Counted from the stretch's first letter, positions 5,243 through 48,655 are shown. The stretch is 64,000 nt of DNA from Parcubacteria group bacterium Gr01-1014_31 (GCA_007376135.1 VMFR01000001.1:77290-141289); one strand, 5' to 3'. Numbers and translations: made by a program. The notes: generated by a model not told the origin, from the letters alone.

Positions 5243-7132
<1,890 letters not shown>

Positions 7133-9343: not shown

Positions 9344-10450
9344 ATGGCCAAGGATTACTACGAACTTTTGGGCGTCGGGAAGAACGCCACCACGGACGAG
9401 ATCAAGACCGCGTTCCGGAAGCTCGCTCACCAATACCATCCCGACAAAGCCGGCGGCAACGCCGAGAAGTTCAAGGAGGTCAGCGAGGCCTACCAGGTGC
9501 TGTCGAATTCCGAGAAGCGCGCCCAGTACGACCGGTACGGCTCCACGTTCGAACAGGCGCAGGCCAAGGGGGGATTCACGGGATTTGAAGGATTCCGCGA
9601 TTTTTCGGATTTTACCGAAGCGTTCCGCGGTAACGGCGGCGCCAGCGCACAGTTCGATTTCGGCGACCTGTCCGACGTCCTCGGCGGGATATTCGGCGGC
9701 CGCGGCGGGACTTCCTCTCGACGCGCCCGGCGCGGCACCGATGCGCAGGTGCAAGTGACCATACCTTTCCGCGAGGCGGTGTTCGGGACGACCCGCGACC
9801 TGCAGCTGGGGCGCGAGCGGCCGTGCAAAACGTGTAGCGGTTCTGGGGCACAGCCGGGCAGCGAAACTTCGCGCTGCAAGGCCTGCGGCGGCCGCGGCCA
9901 GGTGGTCCGCGAGATCGGCCTGGGGTTCGGGATGTCCGCAGTGTGCCCGGAATGCGCGGGCAAAGGGAGCAAGCCCGACAAGCCGTGCCGCGACTGCCAT
10001 GGCGCGGGTATCCTGTTCACGCGCGAGACGTTGAGTGTGAAAATTCCTGCCGGCATTGGCGACGGCCAGGCCATCCGCATTTCCGGCGCGGGACAAGCCG
10101 CACCGGGCGGGAGTGCGGGCGATCTGTACGTGCGCGTGCAGGTGGCCCCTGATGAACGGTTCCAGCGCACCGGCGACGACTTGAAAACCACGGCCGAAAT
10201 AACATTTCCGACCGCGGCGCTAGGCGGGACTCTAAACCTGGAAACCCTGGAGGGAACGGTCACCATCAAGATCACGGAAGGGACGCAGTCCGGCCGGGTC
10301 ATTCGCGTACGCGGCAAGGGGGTGCCTAATGTGGAAGGCCGTGGGCGCGGCGACCTGCTGGTCACCGTGCAGGTAAAAACACCCGGGAAACTGACGCGTC
10401 GCCAGCGGCAGCTGCTGGAGGAATTACGCGGCGAACTCGGGAATGCTTGA
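9344..10450 (+). CDS. dnaJ: molecular chaperone DnaJ
   Basis: J-domain 'DYYELLGVGKNATTDEIKTAFRKLAHQYHPDK', G/F region, four CxxCxGxG zinc-finger repeats, C-terminal domain. Confidence 0.95.
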   Translation: MAKDYYELLGVGKNATTDEIKTAFRKLAHQYHPDKAGGNAEKFKEVSEAYQVLSNSEKRAQYDRYGSTFEQAQAKGGFTGFEGFRDFSDFTEAFRGNGGASAQFDFGDLSDVLGGIFGGRGGTSSRRARRGTDAQVQVTIPFREAVFGTTRDLQLGRERPCKTCSGSGAQPGSETSRCKACGGRGQVVREIGLGFGMSAVCPECAGKGSKPDKPCRDCHGAGILFTRETLSVKIPAGIGDGQAIRISGAGQAAPGGSAGDLYVRVQVAPDERFQRTGDDLKTTAEITFPTAALGGTLNLETLEGTVTIKITEGTQSGRVIRVRGKGVPNVEGRGRGDLLVTVQVKTPGKLTRRQRQLLEELRGELGNA

Positions 10451-14944: not shown

Positions 14945-16705
14945 ATGCTCACGCGAGCGTTGGTTCTAGCGGGCATTGTGGCGGTCGGCGGTACGGTGGC
15001 GGCACAGGATGGCATCATTTCCACGGTGGCCGGCACCCGAACGCCAGGCCATGCCGGCGACGGCGGCCAGGCGGTGAACGCCCAGTTCGAGCTGCCCGTC
15101 GGGGTGGCGGTCGCTGCGGACGGTACGCGGTATGTCGCCGACGCTCAAGCGTCGGTCATCCGCAAGATCGACCCCAGCGGGGTCATCACCACCATCGCGG
15201 GCACGCCCGGCGAGTTCGGCTTCTCCGGCGACGACGGTCCGGCGATTGGTGCGTTCATTTCAGCGCCGTTGGGCATCGCGGTCGACGCCAGCGGCAACGT
15301 GTACTTCTCCGACGCCGGGAACCGGCGGGTGCGGAGGATCGCCGCCGCAGACGGCAGCATTACGACCGTTGCGGGCAACGGGGACAGCGGGTACTCGAAC
15401 GTTTCGGGTGTTGCGTTGGAGCTTTCCATCGATTACCCCGCGGGCCTGGCAGTCGGTCCGCAAGGGTACGTGTACATCGCCGCTCCGAACAATGGGATGG
15501 TGTACTACCTCATCCCGGAGCTGGGAGCTCTGGATACGGTCGCTGGCGATTTCGAGCAGCACGGCGCATCCAGCGGCGACGGCGGCCAGGCCAGGTCGGC
15601 CGGGCTGCATTTGCCCTGCGGGGTCGCGGTGGCGTCCGACGCCACGGTGTACATCGCCGAACAAGGCGCGCACCGCATCCGCAAGGTTGCCCTCGATGGG
15701 ACCATCACCACGCTGGCGGGCACCGGTACGGCCGGATACAGCGGCGACGGCGGCCTGGCGACGACCGCGCAGCTCTCGTTCGACGTCGAATACCCCTCCC
15801 AGCTCGCCATTGATGATACGGGCGCGCTGCTCATCGCCGACAGCGGCAACTCCGCCGTTCGGCGTATCGACGCCAGTGCTTGCATCGAAACCTATGCCGG
15901 CACCGGGGTCGGCGGCTTTTCCGGCGACGGCCAATGGGCCTTCGAGGGGCAGTTGATGCTGCCGTATGCCGTTGCCAGCGGAACCAACGGCGACCTGGTG
16001 GTTGCCGACAGTTTCAACTACGCGCTGCGCAAGGTCAGCCGTAACTTCAGCACCCAGACCGGGAGCAACGTGACCGTCGACCTCGGTAGCGAGGCCTCGC
16101 TGACCTTCGAACAGGTCACCAGCAGCGGCGACGTTTCCATCGATGTCGTGGACACGGTACCCACACCCGCGCCCGGCTACGTTGAGGTCAACGGCAAATA
16201 CTACGACATCAACGTTACCGGCGGTTTCACCGGCGCGGTTACGCTCGCCATCGGCTACGACGACGCCGGGCTGTCGGTCGGCCAAGAGCGCCAGCTCAAG
16301 TTGCTGCACTTCGTCAGCGACCAGTGGGTGGACGTTACCACCGACGTGCGCGTTGACGTGAACTTCATTGACGGCCAGGTGACCAGCTTTTCGCCGGTCG
16401 TGCTGGTGCTGCCCAGCGAAGGCAAGCCGCTGGTCAATTTCCGGCGGGGCGATGCCAACGACGACGGCGCATACGATGTTTCCGACGCCGTTTCGGCGCT
16501 GCTCTACCTGTTTGCCGGCCGCACGTCATCGTGTCTGGACGCGCTCGATGCCAACGACGACGGGAGCGTCGACATCAGCGATCCGGTGGCGGTCCTCGAC
16601 TGGCTGTTCCTCGGCGGCAAGAACCTGCCCCCTCCCGGCCCGGATGATACCGGGCTCGACCAGACCGACGACGGTACCAACTGCGACGCGTATCAGTCGC
16701 GCTGA
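14945..16705 (+). CDS. secreted NHL-repeat beta-propeller protein with C-terminal dockerin-like Ca-binding pair
   Basis: SD GGAGGT sits 8 nt upstream of ATG 14945. Signal peptide 'MLTRALVLAGIVAVGGTVAAQ'. Repeated 'GDGGxA..A.L..P.GVAV...G..Y.AD..N..IRKI' NHL units. C-terminus 'GDANDDGAYDVSDAVSALLYLF...DANDDGSVDISDPVAVLDWLF' is dockerin-like. Confidence 0.7.
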   Translation: MLTRALVLAGIVAVGGTVAAQDGIISTVAGTRTPGHAGDGGQAVNAQFELPVGVAVAADGTRYVADAQASVIRKIDPSGVITTIAGTPGEFGFSGDDGPAIGAFISAPLGIAVDASGNVYFSDAGNRRVRRIAAADGSITTVAGNGDSGYSNVSGVALELSIDYPAGLAVGPQGYVYIAAPNNGMVYYLIPELGALDTVAGDFEQHGASSGDGGQARSAGLHLPCGVAVASDATVYIAEQGAHRIRKVALDGTITTLAGTGTAGYSGDGGLATTAQLSFDVEYPSQLAIDDTGALLIADSGNSAVRRIDASACIETYAGTGVGGFSGDGQWAFEGQLMLPYAVASGTNGDLVVADSFNYALRKVSRNFSTQTGSNVTVDLGSEASLTFEQVTSSGDVSIDVVDTVPTPAPGYVEVNGKYYDINVTGGFTGAVTLAIGYDDAGLSVGQERQLKLLHFVSDQWVDVTTDVRVDVNFIDGQVTSFSPVVLVLPSEGKPLVNFRRGDANDDGAYDVSDAVSALLYLFAGRTSSCLDALDANDDGSVDISDPVAVLDWLFLGGKNLPPPGPDDTGLDQTDDGTNCDAYQSR

Positions 16706-16740
16706 CCATGCACCTTGGGTTCCGGCGCGTTCGCGCCAAC

Positions 16741-16768
16741 GGGGGAGATCGATCACCCCCGTTTTTTT
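16741..16768 (+). terminator. intrinsic terminator after NHL gene
   Basis: ggggg-agatcgatca-ccccc followed by gttttttt. Confidence 0.7.
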
Positions 16769-16779
16769 ATACCCCACCA

Positions 16780-16808
16780 TTGCCAGACCGCGATTTTCCT
16801 GCTATCTT
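16780..16808 (+). promoter_or_regulatory. sigma70-like promoter for the tRNA locus
   Basis: TTGCCA (16780-16785), 17-nt spacer, TATCTT (16803-16808). Predicted TSS falls a few nt before the tRNA-like 5' fragment at 16818. Confidence 0.5.
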
Positions 16809-16817
16809 CAATGCCAT

Positions 16818-16876
16818 GCCGCCTTCGTCGAGAGGCCTAGTCTCGTTACGGGAGATCTCCCGTAGGGAGAGACGCC
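16818..16876 (+). other. tRNA-Glu-like 5' fragment (acceptor 5' strand plus D-arm) carrying a 30-nt palindromic insertion
   Basis: 'GCCGCCTTCGTCGAGAGGCCTAG' matches 20/23 positions of the adjacent tRNA-Glu (positions 1-23). Homology resumes at 'GACGCC' (16871) after a 30-nt insert (16841-16870) containing TCTCCCgtaGGGAGA. No anticodon arm or 3' half follows. Confidence 0.6.
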
Positions 16877-16899
16877 ACTAGTTTCCCACCCAAATTTTT

Positions 16900-16972
16900 G
16901 CCGGGTTCGTCTAGAGGCCTAGGACGCTGCCCTCTCACGGCGGAAACACGGGTTCGAATCCCGTACCCGGTA
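16900..16972 (+). tRNA. tRNA-Glu (anticodon CTC)
   Basis: Manual cloverleaf: acceptor GCCGGGT/ACCCGGT with G1-U72; D-stem GTCT/GGAC; anticodon stem CTGCC/GGCGG, loop CTCTCAC; T-arm ACGGG-TTCGAAT-CCCGT; discriminator A. CCA not encoded. Confidence 0.9.
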
Positions 16973-17012
16973 GAAATTTGAGCGGGAGGCAGTAAACCAA
17001 CGCTATACCGTT

Positions 17013-17081
17013 ACGGCGGAAACACGGGTTCTCACCCTTCGAGTGATCTCCCGTAGGGAGAGAATCCCCTAGGCGGTACCA
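17013..17081 (+). other. tRNA-Glu-like 3' fragment (anticodon 3' stem to CCA) carrying a 30-nt palindromic insertion in the T-loop
   Basis: 'ACGGCGGAAACACGGGTTC' is identical 19/19 to tRNA-Glu positions 37-55. A 30-nt insert (17032-17061) is followed by 'GAATCCCCTAGGCGGTACCA'. The 3' acceptor AGGCGGT is exactly complementary to the 5' fragment acceptor GCCGCCT, with compensatory changes at 5/68 and 6/67. No 5' half precedes it. Confidence 0.6.
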
Positions 17082-17101
17082 CCCGATCTACTCCTAAGGA
17101 A

Positions 17102-17131
17102 AACGTCGGTTGACGGACGTTTTCTTTTTTT
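17102..17131 (+). terminator. intrinsic terminator closing the tRNA transcription unit
   Basis: aacgtc-ggttgacg-gacgtt followed by ttctttttttat. Confidence 0.7.
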
Positions 17132-17156
17132 ATCCGGAACTGCATAATGTACGGGT

Positions 17157-17717
17157 ATGTCGCCATTCACGATCGTGCTTCTCACGTTGGTGCTGGTAGT
17201 GATGCTGTTTATCCTGGTGTTTGCCGCCGTTCTCCTGACGCCGTTCGCCCTGCCGCTGCTGGCGTTCGGCGCGCCGTTCATTCCCAGCGCAGGGAAGACG
17301 GTGGAACGGATGTTGGACGCCGCCGGTGTCGGTCCAACGACGCGGTTGCTCGACCTCGGGTCAGGCGACGGGCGCATTCCGGTGGCGGCGGCAAAACGCG
17401 GCGCGCGGGCCGACGGCGTCGAGGTCAATCCGTGGCTGGTGTGGGTTTCCCGCCGGCGGGCGCAGTGGTTTGGCGTGCGCGAGCACACCATGTTCAAGTG
17501 CGGCAACCTGTGGACGTACGACGTTGCGGCCTACGACGTGGTGACCGTGTATGGCCTGGGCCCGATCATGGGGAAGCTGGAACAGAAACTGTTGCGCGAA
17601 CTGAAGCCCGGGACCCGCGTGGTGTCGCACGCCTTCCATTTCCCGAACTGGCGGCCCGAGCGCGAGGACCGTGGCGTGGTGCTCTACGTGGTGCCTGAGC
17701 GTTCCGCGGCTGCGTGA
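17157..17717 (+). CDS. membrane-anchored class I SAM-dependent methyltransferase
   Basis: N-terminal TM helices, then MTase motif I 'LLDLGSGDGRIPVAAAKRGA' and 'GVEVNP'. Confidence 0.65.
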   Translation: MSPFTIVLLTLVLVVMLFILVFAAVLLTPFALPLLAFGAPFIPSAGKTVERMLDAAGVGPTTRLLDLGSGDGRIPVAAAKRGARADGVEVNPWLVWVSRRRAQWFGVREHTMFKCGNLWTYDVAAYDVVTVYGLGPIMGKLEQKLLRELKPGTRVVSHAFHFPNWRPEREDRGVVLYVVPERSAAA

Positions 17718-17718
17718 T

Positions 17719-18834
17719 ATGGCCTGGCGATTGCCTTTGCGCCGGTTGCGCTACTATGATCTGCTGCTCCTGAGTGCGGTGGTGGTGCTGTGCGCGTTCA
17801 GCCTGGCGGCGTTGTACGGGATCGCAACCGGTTTTGAGACCCCGGATTTCGGCAACCTTCGCAAGCAGGTGCTCTTCATCGCCTTGGGCATGCTCGCGCT
17901 GGTCGCGGTGTCCACGGTCAACACCCAGTGGCTCAAACAGTACGCGGTTGCGGGCTACGCCTTGAGCGCATTGCTCCTGGTTGCTGTGCTGGTGTTCGGT
18001 CAGACGCGGAGCGGTACGACCGGCTGGTTCACGCTCGGTCCGATCGGGTTCCAACCGGTCGAGGTGGCGAAGTTCGCGTTGATCATCCTTCAGGCGCGCC
18101 TCTTGTCCGCGCGGCCCAGCGGGGGCGGGTTGCCGTGGCGGCTGCTGGCCGAGAGCGGTGGGATCACGGCGCTGTACTGCGGCTTGACCCTGCTGCAGCC
18201 GGACTTCGGTTCCGCGATGCTGCTGCTGGTGATATGGCTGGGTATGGTGTTCTTTGCCGGCGTCACCGCGCGGCAGGTGCTGGCGATGGCGGCGGTGGTC
18301 GGGGTCTTGGGGGCGGGCTGGTGGACCTTGTTTTCGCAGGAATATCAGCATGCCCGCATTATCACCTTCTTGAACCCGGCGGCCGACCCCTACGGGCGCG
18401 GCTACCAGGTGCGGCAATCCATCATTGCCGTCGGTGCCGGCCAGCTGCTCGGCCGCGGTCTGGGATCGGGCTCGCAAAGCCAGCTGAAGTTCATCCCCGC
18501 ATCGCAGACGGACTTCATTTTCGCGGTCATTGCCGAGGAGTTGGGGTTGCTGGGCGCCGGGGTAGTCCTGGCGGCGTACCTGGTACTGCTGCTGCGTTTA
18601 GCGGCGCTGGCGCGCCGGGCGGCCGATGATTTTGCCGCTGCGCTGGTGCACGGCATCGCGGTGCTGCTGTTCGTCCATATCGTCATCAACGTCGGGATGA
18701 ACCTGGGGCTCCTGCCCGTGACCGGCATCCCGTTGCCGTTGCTGAGCTACGGCGGCAGCTACCTGGTCATCACCTTGACGCTCCTGGGGGTCGCGCAGAG
18801 CGTCGCGATTTCCAGCGTCAAATATCGTGCCTGA
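17719..18834 (+). CDS. SEDS-family peptidoglycan glycosyltransferase (RodA/FtsW)
   Basis: Ten-TM SEDS protein with 'GYQVRQSIIAVGAGQLLGRGLGSGSQSQLKFIPASQTDFIFAVIAEELG'. ATG at 17719 lies just after the upstream stop. Confidence 0.85.
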   Translation: MAWRLPLRRLRYYDLLLLSAVVVLCAFSLAALYGIATGFETPDFGNLRKQVLFIALGMLALVAVSTVNTQWLKQYAVAGYALSALLLVAVLVFGQTRSGTTGWFTLGPIGFQPVEVAKFALIILQARLLSARPSGGGLPWRLLAESGGITALYCGLTLLQPDFGSAMLLLVIWLGMVFFAGVTARQVLAMAAVVGVLGAGWWTLFSQEYQHARIITFLNPAADPYGRGYQVRQSIIAVGAGQLLGRGLGSGSQSQLKFIPASQTDFIFAVIAEELGLLGAGVVLAAYLVLLLRLAALARRAADDFAAALVHGIAVLLFVHIVINVGMNLGLLPVTGIPLPLLSYGGSYLVITLTLLGVAQSVAISSVKYRA

Positions 18835-46730: not shown

Positions 46731-48655
46731 GATTCCGTGCAGGCCATGATCCGTTCCGGGTGTCCGGCAGCGACCACCCCCAGCGCATCCGCCGCTCAAC
46801 GCTTCCCGACGATTTTTCAGAGGCCGGGCCAGCGGGAGCCGGGTACCTGGGCGCATCGCTGCCGTTGGGGCGCATCCATGCCTGGATCGTTATTTTTACA
46901 ACAGTGATCGCGGTGTTCGCCGTCCGTGCCGCGTATCTTCAGGTCATTGAGGGACAACGCTACCGCCAACTGGCGGACGGCAATCGCATCCGGATCCTGA
47001 CCATCCCAGCTCAGCGAGGCATGCTTGCCGACCGATTCGGGCAGCCGCTCGTTTCCCATACGCCCAACCTTCGGGTTCAGGTGGTCCCGGTTGACCTGCC
47101 GAAAGCCGGCGCGGGCCGAGAGCTCCTGGTCGTTGAGCTTGCCCAATTGACGGGTGCAATGCCGGAGGACATGCGGCAGACCTTGGCAGGGTTGGACGAA
47201 CTTTCGTATGAGCCGGTGGTTATCCGTGAGAACTTGTCGCATGATCAGGCCATTGCGCTGGCGTTGCTTTCCAGTCGCACGCCGGCCGTGAAGTTGGATG
47301 TGGCATCGCGCCGGCAGTATTTGAACGAAAAGATCCAGAGCCTCTCGCACGTGCTGGGTTATCTGGGAAAGATCGGTCCGGGAGAAACGACCGAAGCGCG
47401 CGCCCGCGGCTATGAGCTGTCGGATAGTTTGGGAAAGGCGGGGTTAGAGCAGGCGCTGGAAGACGCGCTGCGCGGCCGTAAGGGACGCGAGCAGATTGAG
47501 GTCGATGCCCGGGGCCAACGCAAGGAGGTCATCAACTACGAGCCTCCAACTGCGGGAACCGACATCGTACTCACCATTGACGCGGGGGCGCAGCAGGTGC
47601 TGGAAGACGCGCTGCGGCGTGCGTTGGCGGTCCATCCGCCTGGCCAAGGAGTAGGTATTGCGTTGGATCCGCGTAACGGCGAAATATTGGCGCTCGTAAG
47701 CCTGCCGACGTTCGATAATAATTGGTTTGCCCGCGGTATCCTGCCGTCGGAATTTTCCAGTCTGGCCGACGATCCGCAACGTCCGTTGTTCAATCGCGCG
47801 ATCCAGGGGGCGTATCCGCCGGGCTCTACGATCAAACCGGTGATCGCCGCCGCGGCACTGCAGGAGAACGTCGTGACGGAACGCACCACCGTTTACAGCA
47901 GCGGTGGCATACGCGTCAATCAATGGTTCTTTCCGGACTGGAAGGCCGGCGGTCACGGCGCGACCAACATGACCTCGGCGTTGGCGGAATCGGTGAACAC
48001 CTATTTCTACTATGTCGGCGGCGGTTACGATTCGTTCAATGGGCTGGGGGTTACCCGGCTGCATCAGTATCTCACCGGCGCGGGATTTGGAAAACCATTG
48101 AACGTTGAGCTGTGGGGGGAGGCATCGGGCCTCGTGCCGACGCCCGCCTGGAAGGAACAGGTTATCGGCCAGCCGTGGTACATCGGTGATACCTACCATC
48201 TATCCATCGGCCAGGGCGACCTGTTGGCAACGCCGATCCAGGTGGCCGCCGCAACGGCAATGATCGCCAACGGCGGCACGCTGTATCGGCCCCACCTCGT
48301 TCGTGAACGCAAACCGGCGGGTGCTCCGCTGGGGTCCCGTCAGCAACCCGTCGCACTGGCGAGTAACATTTTTTTACCCGAGCATCTTGCCGTCGTTCGG
48401 CGCGGTCTGCGGCAGGCGGTGAAGACCGGCAGCGCGCGCGCGCTCAATATGGCCTCCCTGCCGGTAGCCGGGAAAACGGGGACCGCGCAATGGTCCAGTA
48501 CCCGTCCTAACCACGCCTGGTTCACCGGGTATGCGCCGGCCGACGACCCGCAGATTGTGGTCACCATCCTGGTGGAGGAAGGGGGAGAGGGGAGTGCGAC
48601 TGCTGTGCCGGTTGCCAATGAGTTTCTGTCGTGGTGGTCAGTTGAGCGGCAGTAG
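46726..48655 (+). CDS. mrdA: penicillin-binding protein 2 (class B transpeptidase)
   Basis: ATGA overlap with mreD. 'YLQVIEGQRYRQLADGNRIRILTIPAQRGMLADRFGQPL' (PBP dimerisation domain), 'GSTIKP' (SxxK) and 'KTGTAQ' (KTG) motifs. Confidence 0.85.

What the first reader, a model, noticed from the sequence alone, without database searches (positions are those of the whole stretch)
16841..17061. Two 30-nt insertions with an identical 17-nt palindromic core in the D-loop and T-loop positions of the split tRNA
Both fragments are interrupted by inserts of exactly 30 nt that start with TC and end with the same GATCTCCCGTAGGGAGA. The first is 'tctcgttacgggagatctcccgtagggaga' at 16841-16870, between tRNA positions 23 and 24 at the D-loop/D-stem boundary. 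The second is 'tcacccttcgagtgatctcccgtagggaga' at 17032-17061, between positions 56 and 57 in the T-loop. The core TCTCCC-gta-GGGAGA is a perfect hairpin, and in the first copy GGGAGATCTCCC gives an alternative hairpin. Same length, same 3' core and loop-position targeting resemble archaeal non-canonical tRNA introns or bulge-helix-bulge substrates, or a miniature insertion element that targets tRNA loops. Neither is characterised in bacteria.
Basis: seen in the sequence. Interest (0 to 1): 0.7.

Follow-up and report, generated by a model that had tools for sequence, protein, structure and literature searches.

The report
Mobile 30-bp double hairpin in tRNA relic
The two 30-base inserts are copies of a tiny palindromic mobile DNA element found across Patescibacteria (CPR); here they sit in the dead halves of a tRNA-Glu gene that was split by a replacement tRNA-Glu copy, and nothing indicates they are introns.

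Summary
Both 30-nt inserts and the shared 17-mer lie exactly where reported, and an independent assembly reproduces them.

They are not introns of a working split tRNA.
- The outer tRNA-Glu(CTC) is a relic. A relative carries one uninterrupted tRNA there; another has insert 1 but lacks insert 2.
- The nested inner tRNA-Glu is identical between relatives, while the outer pieces drift at about the neutral rate.
- With everything removed, the outer pieces still do not make a tRNA.
- The insert boundaries lie inside continuous helices, not in a bulge-helix-bulge.

The inserts belong to a family of 30-bp double hairpins ("E", consensus TTG|TCTCCC-TTC-GGGAGA TCTCCC-GTA-GGGAGA|CAA). I found 72 distinct copies in MAGs from many Patescibacteria lineages.
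- About a third are clean in-frame 10-codon insertions in housekeeping genes.
- About a quarter lie in fragments of a tRNA next to an intact copy of that tRNA.
- These loci often hold a small UPF0213/SLX1-like GIY-YIG nuclease gene.

The window is a nuclease-less example of this nested-tRNA architecture. How E moves is unknown. I found no published description in the searches I ran.

The parts
16780..16808 (+). Sigma-70-like promoter (TTGCCA-17-TATCTT) of the resident tRNA-Glu locus
   Evidence: Consensus scan. The same sequence sits upstream of the tRNA in L003, L005/L006 and (diverged) L007.
16818..16840 (+). Outer (relic) tRNA-Glu 5' fragment, tRNA positions 1-22
   Evidence: 88% identical to the 5' end of the inner tRNA (D3). 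Contiguous with the promoter exactly as the intact tRNA is in L003. 3/23 differences from L005.
16841..16870 (+). Insert 1 (E1): 30-bp double hairpin, TCTCGTTACGGGAGA + TCTCCCGTAGGGAGA
   Evidence: Present in L005/L006 with a different first hairpin, TCTCCCCTCGGGAGA. Absent from L003.
16871..16876 (+). Outer tRNA positions 23-28 (GACGCC); repeated as (A)ACGCT at the start of the 3' fragment
   Evidence: Read from the sequence. A 5-6-nt overlap of the two outer fragments around the nested cassette.
16877..16899 (+). Spacer; 16884-16899 is the left arm of the inverted repeat flanking the inner tRNA
   Evidence: I2. Pairs in the minimum-free-energy (MFE) fold. The counterpart in L007 (ccccccaagttttt / aaaatttgggagg) keeps the pairing with changed bases.
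16900..16972 (+). Inner intact tRNA-Glu(CTC), no encoded CCA; the functional gene
   Evidence: ARAGORN. Rfam tRNA 56.9 bits. 0/73 differences from L005, while third codon positions next door differ by 7.3%.
16973..16999 (+). Spacer; 16973-16987 is the right arm of the inverted repeat
17000..17031 (+). Outer tRNA 3' fragment, positions about 24-56, with a degenerate anticodon arm (CTATA CCGTTAC GGCGG)
   Evidence: D2, 81% identical to the inner tRNA. ARAGORN rejects the reconstituted gene.
17032..17061 (+). Insert 2 (E2): 30-bp double hairpin, TCACCCTTCGAGTGA + TCTCCCGTAGGGAGA
   Evidence: Appears as a clean 30-nt gap in L005/L006. Its first hairpin belongs to the TCACCC subfamily seen in other CPR genomes.
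17062..17081 (+). Outer tRNA positions 57-76 with encoded CCA (GAATCCCCTAGGCGGTACCA)
   Evidence: D4. Identical 20-mer in L012. The trailer that follows is shared with the intact tRNA of L003.
17096..17127 (+). Intrinsic terminator of the tRNA transcription unit
   Evidence: Conserved in L003 and L005.

Best explanation
The inserts are two copies of a 30-bp, two-fold-symmetric double-hairpin DNA element (E) that is dispersed in MAGs of many Patescibacteria lineages. E is inserted precisely, with no target-site duplication, usually at T-T-G|C-A-A-like sites (here TAG|GAC and TTC|GAA).

In this window both copies lie in the two remnants of the resident tRNA-Glu(CTC) gene. That gene was split in its D-stem/anticodon-stem region by a nested cassette carrying a complete, slightly different tRNA-Glu(CTC).

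How the locus works now (inferred). The old promoter transcribes one precursor. The 5' relic plus E1 form the leader, and the 3' relic plus E2 form the trailer. Ordinary tRNA end-processing and CCA addition release the inner tRNA. The relic and the hairpins are carried along and decay.

Shown:
- the family membership, mobility and dispersal of E;
- the relic status of the outer gene;
- the recurrence of the same nested architecture for many tRNAs, often together with a small UPF0213/SLX1-like GIY-YIG nuclease gene.

Inferred:
- The nested cassettes spread as nuclease-driven 'break the resident tRNA gene and bring a spare' elements.
- E hairpins are linked to that process, either as a structure the nuclease acts on or as recombination hot spots.
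- The window carries a nuclease-less descendant.
For: The outer gene is a relic.
- L003 (downstream methyltransferase gene 84.8% nt identical to the window's; its protein 89% identical) has the same promoter, trailer and terminator around one intact tRNA-Glu(CTC) with no inserts.
- L005/L006 have the nested structure with E1 but no E2.
- Window versus L005: inner tRNA 0/73 differences, outer fragments 6/75, E1 4/30. Neutral yardstick: 7.3% at third codon positions.
- The reconstituted outer tRNA fails ARAGORN. At a relaxed threshold it gives a cloverleaf with a broken anticodon stem and the anticodon TTA.

E is a family.
- The 17-mer hit at least 119 stretches of GTDB representative genomes.
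- 75 hits (72 distinct) carry the partner hairpin. First-hairpin stems vary with compensation: TCTCCC 27, TCTGCC 15, TCCCCC 15, TCACCC 8. The flank consensus is TTG|E|CAA.
- Every record that carries a double-hairpin copy and names a lineage (by my reading) is Patescibacteria, apart from TPA MAGs labelled 'uncultured Gammaproteobacteria'. The one such MAG I tested has a LeuRS 88% identical to a Kuenenbacteria protein.
- Hits in other taxa lack the partner hairpin.
- There are 0 hits in viral contigs.

E is mobile and translated.
- 23/75 copies lie deep inside long ORFs, among them recognisable housekeeping genes (LeuRS, TGT, Pol I, TsaD, PEP-utilising enzyme; functions judged from the translations, only TGT and one LeuRS confirmed by search). 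They occur in both orientations and in all five open phases, never in the stop phase.
- The ten TGT homologues I aligned from the top of the hit list (up to 99% identical over the aligned segment) lack exactly the 10 residues SPFGRSPVGR.

E is linked to tRNA genes.
- 21/72 copies lie within 400 nt of an intact tRNA, against 6.2% expected (P about 1e-9).
- In 16 of those, the flanks of E are fragments of that tRNA.
- Nuclease-less nested loci shaped like the window: L027 (Met), L122 (Arg), L017 (Ser).
- Nested loci with a GIY-YIG gene: L034, L041, L110, L065, L137, L148, L159, L171.
- In a nuclease-centred metagenome sample, 24/39 genes have a same-strand tRNA within 700 nt. All 9 E-like elements in those 139 kb lie within about 200 nt of the nuclease gene.
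- The nuclease matches Pfam GIY-YIG at E about 1e-15. Its closest solved structures are UPF0213 proteins (6e-15), then SLX1 (1.6e-5).
Against: - No expression data exist, so RNA-level removal of the hairpins is not directly excluded.
- The window has no GIY-YIG gene, and most E copies elsewhere are not next to one. The nuclease link is therefore circumstantial.
- The 20-nt 3' end of the relic is identical in the distant L012. That could mean constraint rather than co-transfer.
- Leader and trailer, including E1 with E2, are predicted to pair into a long stem (z -5.7), which could have a processing role.
- The genome-wide copy number of E in the source genome is unknown.
- Whether the simple locus of L003 is ancestral or a secondary collapse is unresolved.
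Confidence: 0.7

Rival explanations
1. The inserts are RNA introns of BHB or another protein-spliced type, removed from a functional split tRNA. This would be the bacterial counterpart of the multi-intron and split tRNAs of Thermoproteales and Nanoarchaeum.
For: The inserts sit in loop regions (D, T) with unambiguous boundaries that restore canonical TTCGAAT and TAGGAC. They have equal length and a common core. In related loci the hairpins recur at D-loop, 34-36 and 55-57 positions. The outer acceptor strands still pair and end in CCA.
Against: There is no bulge-helix-bulge; the boundaries lie inside a continuous helix. The outer tRNA is defective after perfect in-silico splicing. E2 is absent in L005/L006, and the outer pieces evolve neutrally. 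0/130 copies restore a tRNA when deleted. 0/23 genic copies are in the stop-containing phase, P = 0.015 if splicing made phase irrelevant. Rfam finds no intron or ribozyme in 11 nested loci.
Confidence: 0.06
2. The hairpins are functional parts of the pre-tRNA. E1 in the leader pairs with E2 in the trailer to build a long double-stranded processing stem (RNase III-like, as around rRNAs), or the hairpins protect the precursor ends.
For: The MFE fold of 16818-17086 pairs E1 with E2 and leader with trailer (-119.2 kcal/mol, z -5.73). The 32-nt arms are 81% complementary (I1). A flanking inverted repeat around the inner tRNA is kept, with changed bases, in L007.
Against: L005/L006 have no E2 and L003 has neither hairpin, yet all keep the tRNA. 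Because E is a near-palindrome, any two copies are complementary, so the pairing follows automatically. The same element sits in ORFs and elsewhere.
Confidence: 0.1
3. The hairpins are local products of replication slippage or template switching in a decaying palindromic region, or an assembly artefact, rather than copies of a mobile family.
For: Insert 1 is a quasi-palindrome. Its first bases (TCTCG) can pair with the D-arm bases CGAGA just upstream. Logan contigs break inside the inner tRNA.
Against: The identical 30-bp architecture occurs in at least 72 distinct places in MAGs of many CPR lineages from independent studies. E2's first hairpin matches a widespread subfamily, not E1. Both inserts are reproduced in an independent assembly, and E1 also in two other metagenomes.
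Confidence: 0.02
4. E is an ordinary REP/REPIN or IS200/IS605-derived hairpin element moved by a Y1 (RAYT/TnpA) transposase, and its presence in the tRNA relic is incidental.
For: It is a short palindromic repeat containing GTAG, inserts without target duplication, and consists of two hairpins like minimal IS200/605 ends. A Y1_Tnp fragment lies near the orthologous locus in L011.
Against: Only 1 of 119 E-containing loci has a Y1 homologue, and that one is about 2 kb away. A third of the copies are intragenic. GTAG lies in the loop, not at the 5' end. Both copies in 64 kb falling within about 100 nt of tRNA relic, together with the P about 1e-9 enrichment at tRNA fragments, is not incidental.
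Confidence: 0.12

Closest known systems
Rickettsia palindromic elements (RPE; own knowledge, Ogata et al. 2000)
   Same: A lineage-restricted selfish palindromic repeat in reduced genomes. It inserts in frame into housekeeping protein genes, where it is apparently translated, and also into RNA genes and intergenic DNA.
   Different: E is 30 bp rather than roughly 100-150 bp. It shows no sequence relation to RPE, is built of two tandem 15-nt hairpins, is found across MAGs of many Patescibacteria lineages, and is strongly associated with split tRNA genes.
REP/REPIN elements with RAYT transposases (Di Nocera et al. 2013, PMC3733652, seen, not read in detail)
   Same: A 20-40-bp palindromic repeat containing GTAG; pairs of inverted units.
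   Different: E is not extragenic, carries GTAG in the hairpin loop, and showed no RAYT association in the sample.
Mobile GC clusters of yeast mitochondria and the 'byp' elements derived from them (own knowledge)
   Same: Ultra-short (about 30-50 bp) hairpin-forming mobile elements that invade genes and intergenic DNA.
   Different: A different host and sequence. Byps break the reading frame and are bypassed by the ribosome, whereas E always keeps the frame open.
Archaeal non-canonical tRNA introns and split tRNAs (BHB substrates; own knowledge)
   Same: Short insertions at D-, anticodon- and T-loop positions; tRNA genes in pieces.
   Different: There is no BHB motif, the host tRNA is a relic, a complete replacement tRNA is nested inside it, and the element also occurs in ORFs.
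Free-standing GIY-YIG homing endonuclease genes in tRNA clusters, e.g. phage T4 SegB (PMC2330249, listed)
   Same: A GIY-YIG nuclease gene abuts tRNA genes, and there is evidence of copying the tRNA region together with the nuclease gene.
   Different: The CPR proteins are about 85-aa single-domain UPF0213/SLX1-like nucleases without a DNA-binding domain. They are nested inside a split copy of the very tRNA they accompany. The window itself has no nuclease gene.
Group I introns in Patescibacteria tRNA genes (Nakagawa et al. 2026, PMC13011429)
   Same: The same phylum and the same target class (tRNA anticodon loops, position 35/36).
   Different: Those are self-splicing ribozymes far larger than 30 nt. 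There is no Rfam intron match here or in 11 nested loci. That paper does not mention hairpin or palindromic insertions.

Membership tests
Archaeal-type BHB tRNA intron | Bulge-helix-bulge (or relaxed hBH) motif, with both splice sites in 3-nt bulges | tested here: not met
   RNAfold of the T-arm plus E2 and of the D-arm plus E1: the insert ends extend the flanking helix continuously (GGGUUCUC/GAGAAUCC).
Archaeal-type BHB tRNA intron | Removal yields a functional tRNA | tested here: not met
   The reconstituted outer gene is not called by ARAGORN. The relaxed call has a broken anticodon stem and the anticodon TTA. 0/130 family copies restore a tRNA on deletion.
Archaeal-type BHB tRNA intron | Splicing endonuclease (EndA) and ligase (RtcB) encoded in the genome | not tested
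   Only 64 kb of the genome was available, and the window ORFs were not scanned for these families.
Group I / group II intron | Ribozyme core detectable by covariance model | tested here: not met
   Rfam E-value search of 16000-18000 finds only the inner tRNA above threshold. A gathering search of 11 nested loci finds only tRNAs. 30 nt is far below ribozyme size.
REP/REPIN-RAYT | Extragenic location | tested here: not met
   23/75 copies lie deep inside long ORFs.
REP/REPIN-RAYT | RAYT (Y1 transposase) gene associated with the repeats | tested here: inconclusive
   1/119 sampled 8-kb loci has a Y1 homologue. Whole genomes were not available.
REP/REPIN-RAYT | Short imperfect palindrome with a GTAG/CGTC tag at the 5' end | tested here: inconclusive
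   The palindrome is present. GTAG lies in the loop of hairpin 2, not at the 5' end.
MITE | Terminal inverted repeats plus target-site duplication | tested here: not met
   Empty-site comparisons show exactly 30 bp (10 codons) added, with no duplication.
RPE-like in-frame selfish palindromic element (works-like class) | Dispersed palindromic repeat inserted in frame in conserved protein genes, absent from close orthologues | tested here: met
Free-standing homing-endonuclease cassette | Nuclease gene present in the inserted segment | tested here: not met
   An HMM built from three of the GIY-YIG ORFs finds no match in the window. The feature is met in sister architectures: L034, L041, L110, L065, L137, L148.
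Nested 'split tRNA + intact tRNA' architecture of CPR (defined here) | 5' and 3' fragments of a tRNA flank an intact tRNA of the same anticodon on the same strand, with hairpin insertions in loop positions of the fragments | tested here: met
   Window. Parallels.

The most novel reading that the evidence does not exclude
E hairpins and the about 85-aa single-domain UPF0213/SLX1-like GIY-YIG nucleases form a previously undescribed, structure-guided mobile system in Patescibacteria. The nuclease, which lacks any DNA-binding domain, would cut hairpin or cruciform DNA (tRNA-gene loops and E itself). Repair would then copy in a cassette carrying a spare tRNA, so the resident tRNA gene is broken and replaced ('cleave and rescue'). 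E would spread as the system's landing or immunity structure, including into protein genes. A still bolder variant, that E is removed at the RNA level as a new bacterial mini-intron, is not strictly excluded either.
Probability: 0.22. Interest if true: 0.85.

Novelty: new variant of a known kind. Interest (0 to 1): 0.62.

Why it matters
Patescibacteria have tiny genomes, yet they tolerate a 30-bp selfish element inside aminoacyl-tRNA synthetases, DNA polymerase I and other housekeeping genes. They also repeatedly carry tRNA genes that were broken and replaced by a nested copy.

If confirmed, this would have four practical consequences.
- It adds one of the smallest mobile DNA elements I know of in bacteria.
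- It explains odd tRNA fragments and 10-residue insertions that confuse the annotation of CPR genomes.
- It gives the large orphan UPF0213 family of GIY-YIG proteins a testable role.
- It provides presence/absence markers for CPR strain genealogy.

It also warns that 'split tRNA plus short inserts' in bacteria need not mean archaeal-style splicing.

Tried and rejected
- tmRNA or permuted tRNA: ARAGORN and Rfam find neither.
- Hairpin-loop targeting as a general rule: E flanks are complementary only at positions 1-2, with no longer stems than re-paired controls (6.26 versus 6.15 of 20).
- Orientation bias of E relative to tRNAs: meaningless, because E reads [TNC loop][GNA loop] on both strands.
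- Y1 transposase association: 1/119 loci.
- rRNA insertions: crude universal 16S/23S motifs found one locus, more than 6 kb from its E.
- Viral origin: 0 hits in IMG/VR.
- The one candidate stop-phase genic copy (L077): a nonsense ORF lying over a tRNA.
- An E-like hit in L011 at the syntenic site: lies in coding sequence and is probably chance.
- Literature: seven full-text searches, including the element's own sequence, found no description.
- I could not obtain the rest of the source genome.

Full report
**1. The observation**

- 16818-16840 reads GCCGCCTTCGTCGAGAGGCCTAG (tRNA positions 1-22). The 30-nt insert 1 follows at 16841-16870, then GACGCC.
- 17000-17031 reads ACGCTATACCGTTACGGCGGAAACACGGGTTC. 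The 30-nt insert 2 follows at 17032-17061, then GAATCCCCTAGGCGGTACCA.
- The 17-mer GATCTCCCGTAGGGAGA occurs twice exactly, plus once inverted with two mismatches inside insert 1. The chance expectation is 0.08 per window.
- Between the fragments lies a normal tRNA-Glu(CTC) at 16900-16972 (ARAGORN; Rfam 56.9 bits). The fragments are 81-88% identical to it.
- A promoter-like site (16780-16808) and an intrinsic terminator (17096-17127) bracket the whole unit.
- Both inserts are reproduced in the Logan assembly of SRR8863434.
- The window comes from Parcubacteria group bacterium Gr01-1014_31, a CPR/Patescibacteria MAG.

**2. What the 'split tRNA' is**

I fetched syntenic loci through the downstream methyltransferase and RodA genes.

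- L003 (methyltransferase protein 89% identical) has the same promoter, trailer and terminator. It carries a single intact tRNA-Glu(CTC) whose acceptor stem is that of the window's outer fragments, and no inserts.
- L005/L006 (protein 86% identical, two independent metagenomes) have the nested structure. Insert 1 is present but its first hairpin differs (TCTCCCCTCGGGAGA). Insert 2 is absent, leaving an ordinary T-arm.
- L007 and L012 (61-63%) also have an intact tRNA-Glu followed by a 3' fragment. That fragment is interrupted by other, unrelated hairpins.

Window versus L005:
- the inner tRNA shows 0/73 differences;
- the outer fragments show 6/75 and insert 1 shows 4/30;
- the neutral yardstick is 7.3% at third codon positions of the upstream gene.

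With the cassette and both inserts removed in silico, the outer gene is still rejected by ARAGORN. A relaxed search gives a cloverleaf with a broken anticodon stem and the anticodon TTA.

So the inner tRNA is the working gene and the outer one is a relic of the resident gene.

**3. What the inserts are**

- In 75 hits (72 distinct), all from CPR-type MAGs, the 17-mer is preceded by 13 nt that complete a 30-nt unit of two tandem 15-nt hairpins.
- The stem of hairpin 1 varies with full compensation: TCTCCC/GGGAGA 27, TCTGCC/GGCAGA 15, TCCCCC/GGGGGA 15, TCACCC/GGGTGA 8.
- The loops of hairpin 1 are TTC, TAC or TGC. The flanks have the consensus TTG|E|CAA.
- Because the loop of hairpin 2 (GNA) is the complement of the loop of hairpin 1 (TNC), the unit is two-fold symmetric and reads the same way on both strands.
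- Hits in Streptomyces, Acidobacteriota, Clostridia and other taxa lack the partner hairpin and are about as many as chance predicts.
- Some carriers are TPA MAGs labelled 'uncultured Gammaproteobacteria'. The one I tested has a LeuRS 88% identical to a Kuenenbacteria protein, so that label is doubtful.
- There are no hits in IMG/VR viral contigs.
- The window's insert 2 has a first hairpin of the TCACCC subfamily. Insert 1 (in its L005 form) belongs to the TCTCCC subfamily. They are therefore not copies of each other.

**4. Evidence that E is mobile DNA and not an intron**

- 23 of the 75 copies lie at least 150 nt deep inside long ORFs. From the translations these include recognisable housekeeping proteins: LeuRS, another class I synthetase, tRNA-guanine transglycosylase (TGT), the Pol I 5'-exonuclease, TsaD, a PEP-utilising enzyme and a dTDP-glucose dehydratase-like protein. 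Only TGT and one LeuRS were confirmed by search.
- These copies occur in both orientations and in all five stop-free phases (6, 5, 5, 5, 2). None is in the one phase that contains TAG. The only apparent exception is not a gene. That gives P = 0.015 if phase did not matter.
- For TGT, the ten homologues I aligned from the top of the hit list, up to 99% identical over the aligned segment, lack exactly the ten residues SPFGRSPVGR. Insert 2 relative to L005 is likewise a clean 30-nt difference with no target duplication.
- At the RNA level, the insert ends simply prolong the flanking helix. There is no bulge-helix-bulge.
- Deleting the 30 nt never restores an ARAGORN tRNA in any of 130 copies.
- Rfam finds no intron or ribozyme.

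**5. The link with tRNA genes**

- E is rare in this high-GC genome. There are two copies in 64 kb, both within the roughly 100 nt of tRNA relic.
- Across the genome sample, 21/72 copies lie within 400 nt of an intact tRNA, against 6.2% expected (P about 1e-9). In 16 of these, the sequences flanking E are fragments of that same tRNA (Ser, Met, Cys, Thr, Leu, Arg).
- Reading the loci shows one recurring architecture. A 5' fragment and a 3' fragment of a tRNA carry E or simpler hairpins at D-loop, 34-36 or 55-57 positions. They enclose an intact tRNA of the same anticodon with a somewhat different sequence.
- Examples without any ORF, like the window: L027 (tRNA-Met, with hairpins in the D-arm and T-loop just as here), L122 (tRNA-Arg) and L017 (tRNA-Ser).
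- Many others also enclose an ORF of about 85 aa. It is a GIY-YIG domain (Pfam E about 1e-15). It is closest to the UPF0213 proteins BH0048 and EF2693 (6e-15), then to SLX1 (1.6e-5), and only marginally to I-TevI.
- A nuclease-centred metagenome sample gave the same picture independently. 24/39 genes have a same-strand tRNA within 700 nt, mostly abutting. All nine E-like elements in 139 kb lie within about 200 nt of the nuclease gene. The adjacent tRNA (Glu, Cys, Leu, Pro, Asn, Gly) is flanked by its own fragments, the 5' one usually ending at positions 33-35.
- In L110, L041 and L171 the segment 'loop + hairpin + loop' is repeated on both sides of the cassette. That is what recombination through the hairpin-bearing segment would produce.
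- L148 carries a different double-hairpin sequence at 35/36 and at 56/57, the latter being the window's insert-2 position.

**6. Best explanation and its limits**

Shown:
- the inserts are members of a dispersed, polymorphic 30-bp double-hairpin family found in Patescibacteria;
- the outer tRNA is a relic and the inner one is conserved;
- the nested architecture recurs, often with a UPF0213/SLX1-like nuclease gene.

Inferred:
- the cassettes spread by nuclease-initiated repair that breaks the resident tRNA gene and supplies a spare;
- the window is a descendant that has lost, or never had, the nuclease gene;
- E is mechanistically tied to this process.

The tie is suggested by three things: the enrichment at tRNA fragments, the nuclease's lack of a DNA-binding domain, and its kinship with structure-specific nucleases. 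No test here demonstrates it. How E itself is inserted (blunt, without duplication, at T-T-G|C-A-A-like sites) remains unknown.

An alternative role for E1:E2 pairing in precursor processing is weakened by relatives that lack one or both hairpins.

**7. Novelty**

Seven full-text searches, including the element's own sequence, found no description.
- The recent survey of tRNA introns in Patescibacteria treats group I introns only.
- A survey of CPR rRNA insertions notes GIY-YIG ORFs in insertions that are not introns.

I rate the finding as a new variant of a known kind, namely short selfish palindromic repeats of the RPE, REP or GC-cluster type. The attached tRNA break-and-replace architecture may be new in its own right.

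Noticed in passing
window 14945-16705 versus 17157-17717 (compared with L005): Divergence jumps across the tRNA locus. The upstream NHL/dockerin gene is 96.4% identical to L005, but the downstream methyltransferase is only 84%. This suggests a recombination boundary at the tRNA locus.
   Followed up: partly
window 16884-16899 / 16973-16987; L007 9650-9665 / 9746-9762: The inner tRNA is flanked by a 15-16-nt inverted repeat (CCCACCCAAATTT / AAATTTGAGCGGG). The pairing is kept with changed bases in the distant L007 (ccccccaagtttt / aaaatttgggagg). It could be a precursor processing stem or the ends of the tRNA cassette.
   Followed up: partly
window 16900-16972; L003 9837-9912; L007 9672-9745: The tRNA-Glu genes of this clade all have a G1-U72 wobble at the top of the acceptor stem and discriminator A73. 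The resident type encodes CCA; the nested type does not.
   Followed up: no
window 48138-48220 (-): ARAGORN calls an 83-nt tRNA-Arg(CCG) here. The region reads like coding sequence, so it is probably a false positive. It was not checked with Rfam.
   Followed up: partly
L001 start (window 16919) and L002 end (window 16948): Both Logan contigs of SRR8863434 break inside the inner tRNA-Glu with a 30-nt overlap. The assembly graph therefore branches there, meaning other copies or strains share this tRNA segment.
   Followed up: no
L026, L047, L124 (bacterium WY2.bin82); L072, L073 (Elusimicrobia MAG); L052: A different repeat uses the same 17-mer as a single hairpin in the frame tcTGATCTCCCGTAGGGAGAGAAgnATCTC, without the partner hairpin. 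It occurs at several sites per genome, and one carrier is labelled Elusimicrobia.
   Followed up: no
L137 2840-2905 and 2930-2990: Hairpin elements are nested inside one another (an E-like unit inserted within the first hairpin of another E), and a hairpin cluster of about 60 nt sits in the T-loop of the 3' fragment of tRNA-Cys.
   Followed up: no
L148 2430-2459 and 2868-2897: A second double-hairpin family with an unrelated sequence (TCCGCCAAAGGCGGA + CCCRCCTCTGGYGGG) occupies 35/36 and 56/57 of a split tRNA-Glu(UUC) that encloses a GIY-YIG gene. The architecture therefore matters more than the sequence.
   Followed up: partly
L096 about 2570-2660 and L107 about 5880-5970 (Parcubacteria Gr01-1014_72, same study as the window): E inside LeuRS and TsaD is flanked in both genes by the same short repeats (AGCTACCAGCTA ... 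AGCTACAAGCT). A larger composite unit carrying E may be what inserted there.
   Followed up: no
L011 519-1108: In a relative that lacks the tRNA locus upstream of the methyltransferase, the neighbourhood holds fragments of a Y1 (IS200/605-type) transposase and a Tn3-family transposase.
   Followed up: partly
L041 415-445: The GIY-YIG ORF runs into the downstream E and ends at the TAG formed by the loop of hairpin 2 (CCC GTA G).
   Followed up: no
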